Virus record (IMG/VR): IMGVR_UViG_3300025035_001128 | DNA from: a virus | DNA length: 46,544 bases | Strand: one strand, 5' to 3' | In this document: positions 7,081-35,925 of the stretch, one piece after another | Position numbering within the stretch: the first letter of the stretch is position 1 | How the letters are laid out: the number at the start of each line of letters is the position of its first letter | Translations under genes and position numbers: made by a program | Notes under the pieces: generated by a model | Told to the model about the DNA's origin: nothing | The model's database searches: none | The model's input: only the letters and a program-made list of their open reading frames with translations

Positions 7081-7337
7081 CAATAGGTTGTTTGTAGGTG
7101 AGTTGAAATGGAATGAAGTTTCTTCAGCTTTAGGAAAGAATAGAAATCATTGGTATAAAAACATAATGAATTATATTCAACCTACGGTAGTTAAACCTCA
7201 ATCTACTCAAGAGATTAATCCTTTTGAGTAGAACCAAAGCTAGCATAAGCTATCTTTGGAAGTGTAGGTTTATCAGCTTGGTTTAACAACCCCTACCAAG
7301 CGACTTGTTTTTCAACAAGGTTTCAGATGGGCTTGCT
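7081..7337 (+). mobile_element. 257-bp 3' remnant of a TnpB element (tnpB C-terminus plus right end/omegaRNA scaffold)
   Basis: near-identical to the reverse complement of 18452-18708; ends in GGGCTTGCT. Confidence 0.75.
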
Positions 7338-18451: not shown

Positions 18452-19398
18452 AGCAAGCCCCTCTGAAACCTTGTTGAAAAACAAGTCGCTTGGTAGGGGT
18501 TGTTAAACCAAGCTGATAAACCTACACTTCCAAAGATAGCTTATGCTAGCTTTGGTTCTACTCAAAAGGATTAATCTCTTGAGCAGATTGTGGTTTAACT
18601 ACCGTAGGTTGAATATAATCCATTATGTTTTTATACCAATGATTTCTATTCTTTCTTAAAGCTGAATAAACTTCATTCCATTTCAACTCACCTACAAACA
18701 ACCTATTGCTCTGCTTGGGTTGTTTGTGATAAGGGAATTTAATTTCTTCTTGATACATCTTCTTAAAACTTACATTATTTTCAGTTTTTTATTTACTTTA
18801 TTGTTAGCCTTAGTTAATTTTATATTTAAATAATATAATTTAGTTCTTAGTTTAGCTAGGTTATTTTTATCAACTACTGTTTAAATATAATCTTTCTTAG
18901 CCATTTTGATAACTAAATCAGATAAAGTTTTTTTTTAGATTTAATAGCTTTATATAAAGATAAAATATTATCTTTAGTATCTTCAATATAACCTTTATTT
19001 AACTCTAATACTGAATTAATTTTACCTGATAATTCAATAGAAATTGAATTATATTGTCTTGCATTAATTTGATATTTAGTTTGGTAACTAGACTTTAATT
19101 CATTAATCTTAGACTTAGGCAATATATCAACTTTATTCTTAATTTTATAAGAAATAATATCTTTATATAATTTACGTTGAATATAATTATGCAATACAAC
19201 AACTTTATCTAATTGAGTTTTAATTTCAATTAGATTATACTGATTTTCAAGTAATGTTGAAGTTAATGTTGTTTGCATTTAGTTTAAATATTTAACCAGT
19301 AATGTAAACTAAATCTATTGTTTTAGCAAGTTGTTTTATTTGTAAATTTATCAAATGAATAGGTTTGATTAACTTTTTCTATATCTGCAAGTTACCCT
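18452..19398 (-). mobile_element. non-autonomous, internally deleted IS200/IS605/IS607-type TnpB element (no tnpA)
   Basis: tnpB-like N-terminus, C-terminal stub and structured right end; left end near TAGGGTAACTTGC. Confidence 0.7.
18558..19278 (-). pseudogene. tnpB: tnpB-like gene with frameshift, nonsense codon and central deletion (no RuvC motifs visible)
   Basis: NELKSSYQTKYQINARQYNSISIELSGKINSVLEL resembles TnpB-related accessory proteins; frameshift in A-run near 18930, TAA at 18881-18883. Confidence 0.65.
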
Positions 19399-25697: not shown

Positions 25698-25993
25698 ATA
25701 TTGGTATTATAACATATATTTATGATATTTATGATATTTAATTTCTGTTACTCCAGGAACTGCACTTATATTTTTTGGTTCCTTATTTTATGTATAATTA
25801 AGCCAAAAGTCATGATTTTAATAAAAATGACTTAACTTCCCATTAATTAATAAATTTTAATTTAACACTTTAATTTTGAATTTATACTATTATTAACTTT
25901 TAAAGTTTTTTCTCTTAACTTGGTAACTTCTTCAACAATTAATTTTTTTACACCATTTGCTAATGAACCAAATATTTAATTAAGTTTATCATT

Positions 25994-29323: not shown

Positions 29324-29689
29324 TTAAATTTGGTTAAGATTATTGACGTTTAAAGTTGGCATAGAATTTCCCCTTATATTTAATAACGAAGATTTAATGC
29401 TTTCATGATTTGGTATTTTTGTTATAGATTCTTGGATTCCAATGATTGATTCATTAAATTGAGGAAAATCTTCTTTCAATTTTTCAGCCAATATAATTCT
29501 TGATTTTTGTAAAACCTCATTTGGAAAACTATCTTTAGAGTCTGAACCCAACCTAGCTAAAATCAATAACCCTCCAAGCACACCACCAACAACAGCAATA
29601 TCTGGAAGCACAGTGCTTACTAATCCAACTACTGCAACAATACCAACGGCTAAGAAGGCAGCGAATTTTTTCATTCCACTTAAAGTCAA
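29324..29689 (-). CDS. hypothetical membrane protein
   Basis: two hydrophobic N-terminal helices. Confidence 0.55.
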   Translation of the reverse strand: MTLSGMKKFAAFLAVGIVAVVGLVSTVLPDIAVVGGVLGGLLILARLGSDSKDSFPNEVLQKSRIILAEKLKEDFPQFNESIIGIQESITKIPNHESIKSSLLNIRGNSMPTLNVNNLNQI

Positions 29690-30230
29690 TCCTGTTTTTT
29701 CAATTTATCTATGTATTTAGCTTCATTTTCTTCTGTAACTAAATTTATAAACCCAGTTATTTCAATTCTTCCTTCTAATTGATTAACTTTTAATCCAATA
29801 GCTTGAAGATTAGAAACAATTTTTTCTTTATCTAAACCTAAATCTTCATTTGAAACTTCAGACCTTGCTGTATCTGAAAGTGTAGTGTGACTAGTCCCAC
29901 CCATACTTGAAGATGTTCTTGCTATTGAAACCCTATAGTTTTTTTGAATTTTTTCAATTAGTTCAATATTTTAATAATCTATTCCAATGAAAAACAGATG
30001 ACCAGCAACCACATACCAATGAATGCCTGTTTTTTTTGATACGGTTGATATTACTGTAGTAGTTTTAACCTGGAATATATGGGTAATTATCTCTGATAAT
30101 TTTTTGCAGTATTAGTTACAATTTTTTCACATATAAGAATATTAAAAAATTAATTATACTTATAGTTTCCCAAAACATAAACCAGCTAAAATCTTCATGT
30201 CTTCATTTTGTTTTTCTTCATTTTTTAGTT
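29686..30230 (-). pseudogene. degraded hypothetical gene (ORF 29686-29904 is its 3' part)
   Basis: frame extends upstream across an in-frame TAA (29971-29973), then further stops. Confidence 0.45.
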
Positions 30231-30262
30231 TTTTTAAAAAAACATTATATTTTTAAAATATT

Positions 30263-30339
30263 TGGTGCGACCAGAGGGGTTCGAACCCTCGACCCAAGGA
30301 TTATGAGTCCTTTGCTCTAACCAACTGAGCTACAGTCGC
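30263..30339 (-). tRNA. tRNA with CAT anticodon (Ile2 or elongator Met), copy 3
   Basis: same D and anticodon arms; T-stem GAGGG/CCCTC; CCA. Confidence 0.92.
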
Positions 30340-30429
30340 ATAAGATTTTACCTTTCTGTAAGTGACCTAATTTACATTATTATACAACAAAATTAACCTT
30401 TTTTTAATAGTTTCACATTTAAATATAAT

Positions 30430-30640
30430 TGAAACAACCAGGATACTTCTCCTGAGTTTCTTACATAGAAAAAGTACCTTGAAAAATCAAGATGCTTTTG
30501 AATGATTACTTTTGGATGAAGCCTAGGAAAATGCCTGTGAGGCCATTTTGCCACTGTTCATAGTGATACTGGTGCAAGTTGAAACCACCCACGGTTTCTA
30601 TCAACATTCTTCTACGTCAGGTAACATTATTTACCATGAC
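30430..30640 (-). ncRNA. candidate structured RNA, unrecognised
   Basis: TATAAT at 30644-30649 followed by a run of hairpins; no RBS-led ORF. Confidence 0.45.
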
Positions 30641-30690
30641 TCTATTATACATCAATTAATATTGAACTTTATTAATCTTTAAAAAAATTA

Positions 30691-30805
30691 TAACAAAGGT
30701 AGGATTCGAACCTACAATTACCAGCGGTTTACGGGGAAGATTTTGGTGTCCTTCTCTAAGATAAATCCCCTAACCACATGTGTCTACCAGTTTTGTCACT
30801 ATGAA
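30691..30805 (-). pseudogene. degenerate type II tRNA-like gene with a ~40-nt hairpin insertion in the anticodon loop
   Basis: Leu-like D-arm AAACTGGTAGA, T-arm GTAGG-TTCGAAT-CCTAC, stem GTGG/CCGC split by the insert. Confidence 0.65.
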
Positions 30806-30822
30806 ATAATTTCTTTTAAATT

Positions 30823-30907
30823 TGGTGCCTAAGGACGGAATCGAACCGTCACGGATTTCTCCGGGGGATTTTGAATCCCCTGCGTCTACCAATTTCACCA
30901 CTCAGGC
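30823..30907 (-). tRNA. tRNA-Leu(CAA)
   Basis: GGGGA-TTCAAAA-TCCCC, variable arm, CCA. Confidence 0.95.
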
Positions 30908-30929
30908 TTTCACATTAATACAAAAACTA

Positions 30930-30995
30930 AACTATCAGTGAGATTCGAACTCACGACATTTACCAACAAAAGTCTACCAACTAGCCCACGATGTT
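30930..30995 (-). pseudogene. degenerate tRNA (loop TTGGTAA, Thr-like) with broken anticodon stem
   Basis: intact T-arm GTGAG-TTCGAAT-CTCAC and D-loop AGTTGGTAG; shortened; no CCA. Confidence 0.55.
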
Positions 30996-31087
30996 TAGTT
31001 AACTGTTTGGTGCAGTCTTTTTTATATTAAAGATATTATAACACTAAAATAAATCAAAACTTTACAAATTTTTATTTATTTCTTATT

Positions 31088-31161
31088 TGGAGCGGAATAT
31101 CAGAATCGAACTGATGACAACAGTTTGGAAAACTGTAGTTTTGCCATTAAACTAATCCCGC
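31088..31161 (-). tRNA. tRNA-Gly(TCC)
   Basis: ACAGT-TTTCCAA-ACTGT, T discriminator, CCA. Confidence 0.93.
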
Positions 31162-31372
31162 AAAAAATTTTACACATTGAAGAACTTCCATTCTTGCATT
31201 TAAACGGCGTGTCACCGTAACCATTTGTCTCGCCAGAGTTACTTTAAGATTATTGCCTTAAAGACTTATCATTAGGAATCGAACCTAACTCCCTTCACAA
31301 CAGCCCTCGGTTAACGAGATGGTTTTAATCCATCCTTTAGAAAAACTCTAGTCTTTCTAAAAGACAATTATT

Positions 31373-31445
31373 TGGAGCGGGGTAGAAAGAATCGAACTTC
31401 TATAAAAGCTTTGATGGCTACGTAATACCATTATACGAACCCCGC
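31373..31445 (-). tRNA. atypical Gly-backbone tRNA with loop CATCAAA (anticodon position TCA); possibly a pseudogene
   Basis: GCGGGGT/ACCCCGC-T-CCA acceptor; 3-bp anticodon stem, A at position 33, bulged T-stem. Confidence 0.5.
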
Positions 31446-31451
31446 AAAAAA

Positions 31452-31567
31452 TTAATCCATAGAGTCATCAGGATTATCTCTGTCTCTTACTCAAGATTAT
31501 CTGAGACAGTTTGATTGAATATCTAGTCAATCCTTCTAGTAATTCTGTTTTATCAGAATCTTATTTC
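31452..31567 (-). repeat. structured tRNA-array spacer, copy A
   Basis: differs from 32002-32118 by 7 substitutions and 1 indel. Confidence 0.9.
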
Positions 31568-31642
31568 TGGTCCGGCATGGAGGAATCGAACCACCATATA
31601 GACTTTAGAAGAGTCTTGTCCTATCCGTTGAACGAATGCCGG
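31568..31642 (-). tRNA. tRNA-Arg(TCT)
   Basis: AGACT-CTTCTAA-AGTCT, CCA. Confidence 0.93.
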
Positions 31643-31750
31643 AATATTTTTATCATATTTAAATACATTAAGTTTTTAATCTGAAACTCTGCAATCCTTG
31701 TTCAGCTTCAATTTAACTTTAACCTGGGGGCAAGCTAATGTATTTAAATA

Positions 31751-31834
31751 TGGTGCGAGAGGCGGGATTCGAACCCGCAAGCCTTTCGGCGGGAGATTTT
31801 AAGTCTCCTGTGTATACCGTTCCACCACACTCGC
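31751..31834 (-). tRNA. tRNA-Leu(TAA)
   Basis: GGAGA-CTTAAAA-TCTCC, variable arm, CCA. Confidence 0.95.
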
Positions 31835-31874
31835 TTTATTTACCATAATACTATTATAACATTAATTTATCTCT

Positions 31875-31920
31875 AATTTATTTAGATTAACTTTATTTAT
31901 TAAATTAATCTAAATAAATT
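31875..31920. repeat. perfect 16-bp inverted repeat abutting the tRNA-Gly CCA
   Basis: AATTTATTTAGATTAA-14 nt-TTAATCTAAATAAATT. Confidence 0.85.
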
Positions 31921-31994
31921 TGGAGCGGAATATCAGAATCGAACTGATGACAACAGTTTGGAAAACTGTTGTTTTGCCATTAAACTAATCCCGC
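31921..31994 (-). tRNA. tRNA-Gly(TCC), second copy
   Basis: one substitution relative to 31088-31161. Confidence 0.93.
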
Positions 31995-32001
31995 AAATTT
32001 G

Positions 32002-32118
32002 TTAATCCATAGAGTTATCAGGATTATTTCTGTCTCTTACTCAAGATTACCTAAGACAGTTTGATTGAATATCTAGTCAATCCACCTAGTAATTCTGTTT
32101 TCTCAGAATCTTCATTTC
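32002..32118 (-). repeat. structured tRNA-array spacer, copy B
   Basis: see copy A. Confidence 0.9.
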
Positions 32119-32193
32119 TGGTCGGTCTAGCAGGAATCGAACCCACATTCATTGCTTAGAAGGCAACTGCACTATCCGTTGTACTATAGACCG
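32119..32193 (-). tRNA. tRNA-Arg(TCT), divergent second gene
   Basis: GTTGC-CTTCTAA-GCAAT, CCA. Confidence 0.93.
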
Positions 32194-32241
32194 ATAATTT
32201 ATCATATTTAATAACACTATTATTAGTAGTAGTATTAAATA

Positions 32242-32328
32242 TGGTGCCTTGGGCCGGAATCGAACCGGCATGGAGTTTCCTCCGAGAGATTTTAAGTCTC
32301 TTGTGTCTACCTATTTCACCACCAAGGC
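32242..32328 (-). tRNA. tRNA-Leu(TAA), divergent second gene
   Basis: AGAGA-CTTAAAA-TCTCT, variable arm, CCA. Confidence 0.95.
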
Positions 32329-32335
32329 TAATTGA

Positions 32336-32412
32336 TGGTGCGACGTGCTGGACTCGAACCAGCGACCCAAGGATTATGAGTCCTTTGCTCTAACCAACTG
32401 AGCTAACGTCGC
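32336..32412 (-). tRNA. tRNA with CAT anticodon (Ile2 or elongator Met), copy 4
   Basis: identical to copy 2, but with a different leader. Confidence 0.92.
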
Positions 32413-32594
32413 ATTCATTTTTGTTAGGCTACTTTCGTTTCCTACCATGTCTGTATTATATATCAATTTTTTGATTTTGTACAGAATTTTTTAAAATCTT
32501 TTTGTATTTTTTGTTTTAATATCAATAACTTAATACGATATTTTAACCTAATACTTTAAGTTTATTTTTATATTCTAAATTTTAAAAGAGCAAA

Positions 32595-32624
32595 AAAAAG
32601 ACAGCCTATTTAGACTGTCTTTTG
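32595..32624. terminator. terminator-like hairpin
   Basis: AAAAGACAG-CCTATTTAGA-CTGTCTTTT. Confidence 0.6.
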
Positions 32625-33276
32625 TTTATTCTTGGTTACTTACTTATTTAACCCTTACGAAACACAAACAAAAGACTGTCCAGGAGATAATATTCTTATC
32701 CCTCTCAATCTTAAGCCTAATAATATAGTTGTGTGTTTCATTTAATTTCTTTTTACTTTTGTAACAATGAATGTATCATATCTCATTTATATTTTTTTGT
32801 CAATATTTTTAAAAAAATATTTATAAAAATAAAAATTTGACTTATTTCGATAATTATACAACAATTAATTTATGAATAAACATTAAAAAATTAATTTTCA
32901 AATAAGGCTTAAAAAATTTACGGGATTGGCTCGTCTATTGTTTTAAGTTTTTATAGGGAAATTAAAATGTTAAAAAACTCTCTACAACAGTTCATTAAAG
33001 AACAATCACCATTTTGTGCTATTTATTTAATTGGTAATAACTGACCAGTTAATTTAGAATTCAAAACATTAGACATTCACAATAATAGATTATTTTATAC
33101 AAATAAAACAATTAATGATGATTACTTTTTTATAAACAATATTAAATTATTAAACAAAGGTAAGAATGATTTCTTATTTTATATTCATAAAAATATTGCC
33201 CAAAAAGAAACATATAAAATTAATTCACAATTAAATCTTATTGTAACAATACCTAGTCTCTATTGGTTTGAATAAC

Positions 33277-33303
33277 TAAAAAAGCAGCAATCGCCGCTTT
33301 TTC
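33277..33303 (-). terminator. intrinsic terminator after the HAD gene
   Basis: minus strand AAAAAGCGGC-GATT-GCTGCTTTTTT. Confidence 0.7.
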
Positions 33304-33330
33304 TTTAAACTAAATTAACCGTTAACCGTC

Positions 33331-33762
33331 TTAATTATTCAGGAAATATTCCAATATTTTAATATCTCCATATGAGATGCCACTTTCACTATCTATTAGT
33401 AGTAAATTTTTATAATTTTTACTAAAAAATCTTTCCATATCATCTAATGCTATCCAAGATTTATTATCTATATTATTCTCTTTACAACACATTAAAATCT
33501 CTTCCTCTCTTCCTCCAATACCATATGTTTCTTTAATTATTGGAGTCACTCCTACTATTCTCTTTTGAATGTCTTTTTCAAAAAAAACCTTTAATTTCTC
33601 AATCGAATGTTCTTCTCTCCAGGAACTAGAGATAACAATATTAACATTATCTAAAAATGGTCTAATGGCAGAACAAAATAATGGAACATGTTCGAAAAAA
33701 CCTTTACCATTTATTCCCTCACCATGAAGAACACCATCAAAATCTAAAAATATTGTTTTCAT
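33331..33762 (-). CDS. HAD-superfamily phosphatase (Swiss-Army-Knife RNA-repair HAD-like)
   Basis: IFLDFDGVLH, IVISSSWR, WIALDD. Confidence 0.85.
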   Translation of the reverse strand: MKTIFLDFDGVLHGEGINGKGFFEHVPLFCSAIRPFLDNVNIVISSSWREEHSIEKLKVFFEKDIQKRIVGVTPIIKETYGIGGREEEILMCCKENNIDNKSWIALDDMERFFSKNYKNLLLIDSESGISYGDIKILEYFLNN

Positions 33763-34566: not shown

Positions 34567-35925
34567 ATGATAATTAAAGAAGAAAAAACTCTAAGCAAGG
34601 AAGACCTAATCGCAAGAGGTTGGACTGAAGATTTAATTGCCATATTAAGACCTCATCCTGTAATAATTGATGATTCTATATTTTGGAAATTTAATGATGT
34701 CTTGGCAAAAGAAAAATATGTCACATTTAAGAATTTTCAAAGTATTGATGAGTTTAATAAAATACAAACTGAATATCTAGAAAAATTTGAAAAGCAAACT
34801 GAAAATGGCATCAACTATGTTGAAAATCTTTCTATAGAGTTAACTAATGATAACTGCTTACTTAGTAACCTGGATAAATATAATCCATTAAAAAATATAG
34901 TTCATTTTGTGGATGACTTTGAAGTAAATGAAAATAGCTCTTTTACTTTATTTACTGATGGCTCATTTAAAAAGATTGGAAGAGAATGTTTTTCTAGCAA
35001 TGCCGGTTGGATAATAAATAATAAAACCAATAAAATTGTGGTTGAATTTTCTAATGTTGAACCAATAATAAAACAAAGGTATGCACATGAAAACACAATG
35101 CCAGAATTTGAATTAATTGGTATTCAAGCTGGAGTTAATTTAATTAAAATGTTAGGATTGAAAAACGTTCAATGCTATACAGATACAATTTCTGAAGCTA
35201 GCACAATAAGTTTAGCTCTCAATGGCTTTGGTAAAAGTAGACTTAATGAATTACAAGATATTTATAATCCAATAATAAAAATATTAAAAGAATCTAACTC
35301 ATCTATAGCTTGGATTCCAAGAGAATTTAATACTCATGCTGATGCATTAACAAAAATATCAGGAAATGCCTGGTTTGAAAAATATAAAAAAGATTTTATG
35401 AATGTAGATAGTATTAAAAATAATAACTATCAAATTGATAGAACAAAAGAGTTCTTTTTTAATCATGAAAAAATTAAATATTCAAGCACTAAAAAATTAG
35501 ATAATAATCCAATAGTTTTATATCATGGAACTGAAGAATTTGATTTTATTTTTATGTATCATGCAGATACTAATTCTATTGAATTAATTAAACACGAATC
35601 TGTTGACTTTTCACATATTGATGAATCATTACCCAAAGGTGTTAAAAATATTAAACGAAGTCAAAGATCAATTCACAACATACTTAAATTTCTTAAAGAA
35701 AACCATGAAGACTATAATCTTTCATTGAAAAATAGCGATGTATCAATATTAAGAAAATTAAGACCTATTGAGCCTCATTTACAAGAAGAATTTTTTGAAT
35801 TTCATAAATTTCTTGATCAAGCTAACAAAACTATTACCATAACTGATATTGAAGATTCAGTTAGAAAACTTATTAGATCAGAAGTTAAAGCATTAACAAG
35901 AATCTATTCACCCCCATCTCCATAA
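34567..35925 (+). CDS. RNase HI-like domain protein with extensions (paralog 2)
   Basis: LFTDGS, FELIG, YTD, WIPREFNTHADAL. Confidence 0.8.
   Translation: MIIKEEKTLSKEDLIARGWTEDLIAILRPHPVIIDDSIFWKFNDVLAKEKYVTFKNFQSIDEFNKIQTEYLEKFEKQTENGINYVENLSIELTNDNCLLSNLDKYNPLKNIVHFVDDFEVNENSSFTLFTDGSFKKIGRECFSSNAGWIINNKTNKIVVEFSNVEPIIKQRYAHENTMPEFELIGIQAGVNLIKMLGLKNVQCYTDTISEASTISLALNGFGKSRLNELQDIYNPIIKILKESNSSIAWIPREFNTHADALTKISGNAWFEKYKKDFMNVDSIKNNNYQIDRTKEFFFNHEKIKYSSTKKLDNNPIVLYHGTEEFDFIFMYHADTNSIELIKHESVDFSHIDESLPKGVKNIKRSQRSIHNILKFLKENHEDYNLSLKNSDVSILRKLRPIEPHLQEEFFEFHKFLDQANKTITITDIEDSVRKLIRSEVKALTRIYSPPSP

What the first reader, a model, noticed from the sequence alone, without database searches (positions are those of the whole stretch)
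31452..32118. Duplicated ~116-nt structured spacer that is far more conserved than the tRNAs around it
Seen: the array contains two blocks in the order Leu(TAA)-Arg(TCT)-spacer-Gly. The two spacers differ at only 8 of ~117 positions. The adjacent Arg(TCT) genes differ at about 26 of 75 positions, and the Leu and Gly-type pairs are also clearly different. In transcript sense the spacer folds into consecutive hairpins (AUUCUG/CAGAAU, GAUUGA/UCAAUC, CUGUCUC/GAGACAG). One substitution falls in a loop and one turns C-G into U-G. It starts exactly at the Arg CCA end, so tRNA processing would release it as a discrete RNA. Known analogy: the T4 tRNA cluster yields stable non-tRNA species of unknown function. 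Inference: either a selected small RNA processed from the tRNA operon or a mini-element that homes to tRNA-Arg 3' ends.
Basis: partly seen in the sequence, partly recalled or inferred. Interest (0 to 1): 0.7.

Follow-up and report, generated by a model that had tools for sequence, protein, structure and literature searches.

The report
Duplicated structured spacer after phage tRNA-Arg
A 116-base hairpin-rich spacer sits directly after two different tRNA-Arg genes in a phage-like tRNA cluster; it is a real, young duplicate with no relatives in the databases I could reach, and nothing shows it is a selected small RNA.

Summary
The two spacer copies ("E", 31452-31567 and 32002-32118, minus strand) are 109/117 identical. 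The tRNA-Arg(TCT) genes directly upstream are only 65-68% identical.

The contrast looks like a difference in age, not a sign of selection on E:
- **Arg genes are old.** Arg_A is 87% identical to Arg(TCT) alleles in unrelated viral contigs, and Arg_B is closest (77%) to a different allele group. They appear to be old, non-sister lineages.
- **E and Gly are young.**

E folds into four hairpins, and all 8 differences spare the pairing. That pattern is only marginally unusual (P about 0.05-0.15). Folding z-scores are weak and there is no covariation.

No homologue turned up in Rfam, the phage records, IMG/VR, the genome or metagenome collections, or 64 related tRNA arrays. Other arrays join Arg to the next tRNA with only 1-9 bases.

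T4 places its 119-nt stable RNA rnaD one base after tRNA-Arg(UCU). That is a close positional analogue, but a covariance model of rnaD does not match E.

Best reading: a co-transcribed structured inter-tRNA module copied by recombination within the array. A function as a small RNA is possible but unproven.

The parts
32002..32118 (-). Spacer module E, copy B (117 nt, four hairpins)
   Evidence: 93% identical to copy A. Minimum-free-energy fold has four hairpins. Scores 151 bits with model R1. GC 0.32.
31452..31567 (-). Spacer module E, copy A (116 nt, four hairpins)
   Evidence: Same evidence as copy B. GC 0.31.
32119..32193 (-). tRNA-Arg(TCT) B, directly upstream of E_B
   Evidence: ARAGORN; Rfam tRNA 58.8 bits. 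Nearest allele is L002, 77%, and it groups with L002 at 86/86 support.
31568..31642 (-). tRNA-Arg(TCT) A, directly upstream of E_A
   Evidence: ARAGORN; Rfam tRNA 54.1 bits. 87% identical to the Arg(TCT) of L055 and L064, and it groups with L030/L055 at 91/99 support.
32242..32328 (-). tRNA-Leu(TAA) B
   Evidence: 70-72% identical to Leu_A.
31751..31834 (-). tRNA-Leu(TAA) A
   Evidence: 81-82% identical to the Leu(TAA) of L016, L064 and L055.
31921..31994 (-). tRNA-Gly(TCC) B, 7 bases after E_B
   Evidence: 73/74 identical to Gly at 31088-31161.
31088..31161 (-). tRNA-Gly(TCC) A', the young twin of Gly_B, 286 bases beyond E_A
   Evidence: Identity stops within 3 bases of each tRNA end (family D2).
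31375..31447 (-). tRNA-like X (degenerate), 4 bases after E_A
   Evidence: Rfam tRNA 21.9 bits, below the gathering score, with mismatched D and anticodon stems. Not called by ARAGORN. Best blastn hits are phage Ala(TGC) tRNAs.
31649..31662 (-). 14-base leader motif with a -10-like hexamer, upstream of Arg_A
   Evidence: An exact 14-mer found only upstream of the two Arg genes. Part of a promoter-like site at 31679-31652.
32198..32211 (-). The same 14-base leader motif upstream of Arg_B
32455..32483 (-). Promoter-like site at the head of the array, upstream of tRNA-Met
   Evidence: 10 of 12 consensus matches.

Best explanation
E is a structured, co-transcribed inter-tRNA module specific to this lineage. 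It belongs to a cassette of the form leader motif, tRNA-Arg(UCU), E, Gly-type tRNA.

The two E copies, and the two Gly(TCC) genes, are young paralogues. They were made by segmental duplication or copy-paste recombination inside a recombination-prone phage tRNA array. The joints fall at the few bases that tRNA ends share, such as the Arg 3' end GACCA. The two Arg and Leu bodies come from older, separate allele lineages. That is why E looks 'more conserved' than its neighbours.

A plausible driver is dosage. AGA, TTA and GGA are the dominant or co-dominant codons of this 27% GC genome.

On the RNA level (inferred, not shown), the precursor would be cut by RNase P at the 5' end of the following Gly or X. 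An endonuclease would cut in the AU-rich single-stranded first 7-8 bases of E, and trimming would then proceed back to the encoded CCA of Arg. That would free a roughly 110-nt four-hairpin fragment. Its hairpins would keep the spacer from interfering with tRNA folding and could slow its decay. Whether it accumulates or acts in trans is unknown.
For: - **Young copies versus old tRNAs.** E is 93% and Gly 99% identical, against Arg 65-68% and Leu 70-72%.
- **Arg and Leu alleles are closer to other phages.** Arg_A is 87% identical to L055/L064 and Arg_B 77% to L002. The ML tree separates them at 91/99 and 86/86, and none of the bootstrap trees joins them. Leu_A also matches L064/L055 at 81%.
- **Compact junctions elsewhere.** L002 and L056 have Arg, 8 bases, then Gly(TCC). 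L055 and L064 have Arg, 9 bases, then Cys. Most other arrays have 1-9 bases after Arg(TCT).
- **Even spread of differences.** The 8 differences are spread evenly along E, with the longest identical run 30 bases. This fits one duplication followed by drift.
- **Codon demand.** AGA is 62% of Arg codons, TTA 50% of Leu and GGA 39% of Gly.
- **Hairpins are the rule here.** The other spacers in this array also start with a hairpin right after the CCA, with z-scores of -2.3 to -5.8.
- **Precedent.** Segmental amplification of a phage tRNA locus, with microhomology at a tRNA end, has been shown experimentally in T6 (PMC13096335).
Against: - The AU test does not reject Arg_A and Arg_B as one clade (p 0.22). 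The 'old, separate lineages' claim therefore rests on identities and bootstrap support from 75 columns.
- E has sharp ends on both sides. The 4-7 base linker to the next tRNA is much more diverged than E itself. A single neutral E+Gly duplication does not predict this.
- E is 31-32% GC, against 10-12% for the plain spacers of the array. All 8 differences spare the helices. Both points hint at some constraint.
- The 14-base leader motif before both Arg genes could mean that a whole block was duplicated and the tRNA bodies were replaced later.
- No relative's genome could be examined.
Confidence: 0.5

Rival explanations
1. E is a selected, stable small RNA released from the tRNA precursor. It would be a functional analogue of T4 species 2 RNA (rnaD) or of spacer-derived regulatory RNAs from bacterial tRNA operons. 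Both copies would be kept because the RNA does something, such as acting as a decoy or sponge, binding a protein, or guiding processing.
For: - T4 has the same layout: tRNA-Arg(UCU), 1 base, then the 119-nt rnaD.
- E has discrete ends on both sides.
- E is about 3 times as GC-rich as the neighbouring plain spacers.
- Seven differences are unpaired and one is C-G to U-G, which is compatible only with the tRNA-sense strand. The simulated P is 0.048.
- A 3'-terminal hairpin would protect the fragment.
- GATT/AATC words are enriched: 6 against a window mean of 1.6 per 116 bases, and only 0.6% of equal-sized windows reach 6.
Against: - Folding z-scores are only -1.9 and -1.2.
- There is no compensatory change.
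- P rises to 0.145 when the test allows for the fact that the fold was derived from these same sequences.
- No homologue was found in any collection or in 64 related arrays.
- The rnaD model does not hit E, and the E model does not hit T4.
- E lacks the tRNA-like 3' end of rnaD.
Confidence: 0.3
2. A whole block (Leu, hairpin and leader, Arg, E, Gly) was duplicated in tandem. The Leu and Arg bodies of one block were later exchanged for foreign alleles by recombination with co-infecting phages. The spacers remain as the only visible trace of the duplication.
For: - The order Leu(TAA), Arg(TCT), E, Gly-type occurs twice.
- The ends of the Leu-Arg spacers and an exact 14-base leader motif are shared by the two blocks, although the tRNA bodies differ.
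- Syntenic arrays in other phages carry very different Arg(TCT) alleles at the same position.
Against: - It needs two precise replacements of 75-87 base bodies with no flanking homology to the donor. In donor-type arrays, Leu and Arg lie 2 bases apart, not 48-108.
- A near copy of the leader motif also stands before tRNA-Tyr, so the motif may be shared for function rather than by descent.
Confidence: 0.12
3. E is a non-autonomous mobile mini-element (MITE- or IS200/IS605-PATE-like) that inserts 3' of the tRNA-Arg end.
For: - Both copies abut the same five bases, the Arg 3' end GACCA.
- E carries subterminal hairpins.
- Compact 'empty' Arg-Gly junctions exist in other phages.
Against: - No terminal inverted repeats or target-site duplication at the ends.
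- Only two copies in 46.5 kb, both in the same context.
- No similarity to the TnpB-remnant repeat at 7081-7337 / 18452-18708.
- No copy in any public collection searched.
- No transposase was identified.
Confidence: 0.08

Closest known systems
Bacteriophage T4 species 2 RNA (rnaD), and species 1 RNA (rnaC), in the T4 tRNA cluster
   Same: A non-tRNA unit of about 119 nt encoded in a phage tRNA cluster. It begins 1 base after the CCA of tRNA-Arg(UCU) on the same strand. E is 116-117 nt and begins 0 bases after tRNA-Arg(UCU). The function of the T4 RNAs is unknown (my own knowledge).
   Different: No sequence or structure homology in either direction: the rnaD model built from 8 T-even phages does not match E, and the E model does not match T4. 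rnaD ends in a tRNA-like acceptor and CCA end and rnaC has a T-arm, while E has neither. rnaD occurs once and is followed by rnaC, whereas E occurs twice and is followed by a tRNA. In several T-even relatives rnaD follows a coding gene, not tRNA-Arg.
Spacer-derived regulatory RNAs of bacterial tRNA operons, such as the 3' external transcribed spacer of glyW-cysT-leuZ, which acts as an sRNA sponge
   Same: A transcribed spacer within a polycistronic tRNA unit that could be released by normal tRNA processing. The concept appears, for example, in PMC9514646, which I saw only in the list and did not read. The details are from my own knowledge.
   Different: No target, no Hfq-type features and no transcript data for E. 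The similarity is one of position only.
Segmental amplification of phage tRNA loci (SegB-driven tandem repeats in T6)
   Same: Duplication of a unit inside a phage tRNA cluster, with the joint at microhomology to a tRNA end and selection acting on tRNA dosage (PMC13096335).
   Different: No homing endonuclease gene lies in or beside this array (ORF list). The copies here are 7% diverged and mosaic, not fresh identical tandem repeats.

Membership tests
T4 rnaD (species 2 RNA) family | Matches the sequence and structure profile of rnaD homologues | tested here: not met
   Model R2, built from 8 T-even phages, was run with filters off over 29500-33500. It gave no hit on either E copy. The E model R1 gave no hit on rnaD in T4.
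T4 rnaD (species 2 RNA) family | Lies in a phage tRNA cluster directly 3' of tRNA-Arg(UCU), about 119 nt long | tested here: met
   In T4, tRNA-Arg is at 71173-71247 and rnaD at 71053-71171. Here, Arg is at 31568-31642 and 32119-32193, with E directly following.
T4 rnaD (species 2 RNA) family | tRNA-like acceptor-type 3' end with CCA | tested here: not met
   rnaD ends in an acceptor-like stem followed by CCA. The E 3' end is a hairpin with no CCA.
T4 rnaD (species 2 RNA) family | Accumulates as a stable RNA in infected cells | not testable with these tools
   No expression data are available.
tRNA (Rfam RF00005) or tRNA-like | Cloverleaf match | tested here: not met
   cmscan at E-values up to 10 gave no tRNA-clan hit on either E copy. 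ARAGORN found none.
Any curated Rfam family | Match to one of 4227 covariance models | tested here: not met
   Only a chance-level hit overlaps E_A (PVT1_5, plus strand, E-value 7.9).
MITE or IS200/IS605-derived mini-element | Terminal inverted repeats or target-site duplication, or ends matching a resident transposon | tested here: not met
   The ends and flanks show neither. blastn of E against the window gives no hit in the TnpB-remnant repeats.
MITE or IS200/IS605-derived mini-element | Several copies in unrelated contexts | tested here: not met
   Only two copies in the window, both after Arg(TCT). None in the public collections searched. The rest of the genome was not available.
Spacer-derived sRNA of a tRNA operon | Co-transcribed with tRNAs and released by RNase P or RNase E | not testable with these tools
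   The position fits: same strand, between tRNAs, with promoter-like sites upstream. Processing is inferred only.

The most novel reading that the evidence does not exclude
E is a new phage small RNA that is cut out of the tRNA precursor next to tRNA-Arg(UCU). It would be an independent invention of the T4 rnaD arrangement. It could act in trans or on tRNA-Arg maturation, for example as a protein or nuclease decoy during the conflict over tRNAs. Selection for the RNA would keep both copies.
Probability: 0.25. Interest if true: 0.6.

Novelty: new member of a known kind. Interest (0 to 1): 0.35.

Why it matters
Non-tRNA RNAs in phage tRNA clusters have been known from T4 for decades, and their function is still unknown. 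A second, unrelated module of the same size at the same place, directly after tRNA-Arg(UCU), would suggest that the position itself matters. It would also offer a second system for asking what such RNAs do.

If E is only a passenger, the locus is still useful. It shows that a phage tRNA array is a mosaic of units of very different ages. It also shows that 'spacer more conserved than tRNA' can arise without any selection on the spacer.

Tried and rejected
**Searches for homologues of E, all empty**
- Rfam at E-values up to 10.
- blastn against 50,697 phage records, which gave only two chance hits at E 0.3.
- Exact 30-mer and 20-mer scans of IMG/VR.
- A 20-mer scan of the genome contigs and of the metagenome contigs.
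- blastn and covariance model R1 over 64 IMG/VR loci that share the Gly(TCC) tRNA.
- The earlier-findings index, by sequence and by relatives.

**Searches for relatives of the genome**
- The RNase H-like neighbour at 34567-35925 has a 72% relative and a cluster seen on 44 contigs of up to 221 kb.
- The search for related loci gave one 39% locus without tRNAs. It gave nothing in the viral or genome contigs.
- tblastn against phages and plasmids was empty.
- An Arg_B 25-mer and the tRNA(CAT) leader 20-mer are absent from IMG/VR.
- No whole genome is held for this window.

**Ideas rejected**
- E as a tRNA or tRNA-like RNA.
- E as an rnaD homologue.
- E as a transposon-like element.
- E as coding sequence. 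Only a 9-codon frame exists in one copy, and its start codon is lost in the other (read).
- An 8-base motif shared by E_A and the Leu_A-Arg_A spacer, which is not enriched in the window.
- An internal sigma-70-type promoter in E. The only candidate scores 9 of 12 and is weakened in copy B.

Full report
**What is there**

The window is AT-rich (27% GC) and looks like part of a jumbo phage. It has many small orphan ORFs. Its metallophosphoesterase is about 31% identical to those of jumbo phages. Twelve tRNAs are called, and several tRNA-like sequences are not.

No whole genome is held. A neighbouring protein belongs to a cluster seen on 44 public contigs of up to 221 kb.

The finding lies in a minus-strand tRNA array. 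In transcript order it reads: Met, Leu(TAA)_B, Arg(TCT)_B, E_B, Gly(TCC)_B, Leu(TAA)_A, Arg(TCT)_A, E_A, tRNA-like X, a 213-base GC-richer stretch, then Gly(TCC)_A'.

**Check of the observation**

- E_A (31452-31567) and E_B (32002-32118) are 109/117 identical. The within-window E-value is 2e-37.
- The Arg genes differ at 26 of 75 positions. The Leu genes are 70-72% identical.
- E starts at the base after the encoded CCA of Arg and stops 4-7 bases before the next gene.
- Both copies fold into the same four hairpins.

One point was missed. Gly(TCC)_B has a 73/74 identical twin at 31088-31161, and that identity stops within 3 bases of the tRNA ends.

**Why the spacer looks more conserved than the tRNAs**

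A 22-base word of the Gly tRNA retrieved 64 IMG/VR loci with tRNA arrays, and I compared the tRNAs with those.

- Arg_A is 87% identical to the Arg(TCT) of L055 and L064, down to a U-U mismatch in the T stem.
- Arg_B is closest to L002 (77%) and to L005/L010 (76%).
- The two are only 65% identical to each other.
- Leu_A likewise matches the Leu(TAA) that sits next to that Arg in L064/L055, at 81%.
- An ML tree puts Arg_A with L030/L055 (91/99) and Arg_B with L002 (86/86). None of 200 bootstrap trees joins the two.
- The AU test on 75 columns does not reject a joint clade (p 0.22), so this point is likely but not proven.

The array is thus a mosaic. It has old, separate Arg and Leu alleles, a young E pair (7% diverged) and a young Gly pair (1%).

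**E is an insertion relative to other arrays**

In the other arrays, Arg(TCT) is followed by the next tRNA after 1-9 bases in most cases. L002 and L056 have Arg, 8 bases, then Gly(TCC). L055 and L064 have Arg, 9 bases, then Cys.

Nothing like E occurs in these loci, by blastn or by a covariance model of E (R1).

**Is E a structured RNA?**

For:
- The four hairpins are kept in both copies.
- Seven differences are unpaired, and one is C-G to U-G. That change is tolerated only on the tRNA-sense strand.
- E is 31-32% GC, while the plain spacers of the array are 10-12%.
- GATT/AATC words are enriched.

Against:
- Folding z-scores are -1.9 and -1.2, and the opposite strand folds about as well.
- There is no compensatory change.
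- A simulation of 7 substitutions plus 1 indel leaves all 26 pairs intact in 4.8% of trials. It leaves the four-hairpin minimum-energy fold essentially intact in 14.5%. Because the fold was derived from these same two sequences, the evidence is suggestive at best.

Structured spacers are also the rule here. The spacers after Leu_A, Leu_B and Gly_B each start with a hairpin right after the CCA (z -3.2, -2.3 and -5.8). 'Starts exactly at CCA' is therefore not special to E.

**Comparison with T4**

The T4 record shows tRNA-Arg at 71173-71247, rnaD (species 2 RNA, 119 nt) at 71053-71171, and rnaC at 70908-71046, all on one strand. The T4 Arg has anticodon UCU.

It is not homology:
- A model of rnaD from 8 T-even phages finds nothing on E.
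- The E model finds nothing on rnaD.
- E lacks the acceptor-like CCA end of rnaD.
- In several T-even relatives rnaD follows a coding gene rather than tRNA-Arg.

**Mobile element?**

- E has no terminal inverted repeats and no target duplication.
- It has only two copies, in one context.
- No copies turned up in the phage, IMG/VR, genome or metagenome collections.

Both copies do abut the same five bases. Those bases are simply the end of tRNA-Arg.

**How it most likely works**

*Shown:* the order, the strand, the identities, the folds, and the promoter-like sites. The promoter-like sites are the head of the array at 32483-32455 and a 14-base motif with a -10-like hexamer 7-9 bases before each Arg.

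*Inferred:*
- E is transcribed with Arg and the following Gly-type gene.
- RNase P cutting at the next tRNA sets the E 3' end, just beyond its last hairpin.
- 3' maturation of Arg, by an endonuclease in the AU-rich first 7-8 bases followed by trimming back to the CCA, sets its 5' end.
- The result is a four-hairpin fragment of about 110 nt.

*The duplication:* the most economical account is recombination or segmental duplication inside the array, with joints at the short identities that tRNA ends provide. This has been seen experimentally in T6 (PMC13096335). It would be favoured because AGA, TTA and GGA are the most used or co-dominant codons (62%, 50% and 39%).

A 13-base direct repeat flanks the 284 bases (X and the stretch beyond it) that separate E_A from Gly_A' (family D10). 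This fits one E+Gly copy that was later split by an insertion.

The sharp 3' end of E, the shared leader motif and the GC content leave room for two rivals: a selected RNA, and a block duplication followed by replacement of the tRNA bodies.

**Limits**

With only two copies, neither covariation nor presence/absence can be judged. The verdict between 'passenger' and 'selected RNA' therefore stays open, at roughly 5 to 3.

Noticed in passing
window 31375-31447 (-): tRNA-like X directly after E_A. It scores 21.9 bits on Rfam tRNA, with mismatches in the D and anticodon stems and a bulged T stem, and ARAGORN does not call it. Its best blastn matches are phage Ala(TGC) tRNAs, although its acceptor ends look Gly-like. 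It is either a decaying tRNA or an unconventional one.
   Followed up: partly
window 31162-31374 (-) and 30920-31015 (-): Two further stretches carry a T-arm-like hairpin and acceptor-like ends, and no tool calls them as tRNAs. The first is 36% GC. The second matches the T arm of phage Ser tRNAs.
   Followed up: no
window 31861-31920 (-); also 31643-31750 and 32194-32241: Spacers begin with a long hairpin at the very first base after the CCA. These include a perfect 19-pair A/U hairpin after Gly_B (z -5.8) and a 15-pair stem enclosing about 60 GC-richer bases between Leu_A and Arg_A (z -3.2). They may be processing sites.
   Followed up: partly
window 31649-31662, 32198-32211, 25728-25741 (-): An exact 14-base AT-rich motif with a -10-like hexamer sits 4-6 bases before both Arg genes. 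A one-mismatch copy lies about 31 bases before tRNA-Tyr. The spacing would place transcription starts at or near the mature tRNA-Arg 5' end.
   Followed up: partly
loci L002-L065 (IMG/VR): The adjacency of Leu(TAA) and Arg(TCT), 2-7 bases apart, recurs in many otherwise different phage tRNA arrays. Syntenic arrays carry strongly different Arg(TCT) alleles at the same position.
   Followed up: partly
phage records H64-H88: In most T-even genome records the rnaD region is annotated as, or overlapped by, a 'hypothetical protein' CDS rather than an RNA gene. The stable RNA is probably being mis-annotated routinely.
   Followed up: no
window 34567-35925 (+): The RNase H-like 452-aa protein has no tblastn match in 50,697 phage records or in the plasmid records. 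It does belong to a cluster seen on 44 public contigs of up to 221 kb. The genome type is well sampled in metagenomes but absent from curated phage collections.
   Followed up: partly
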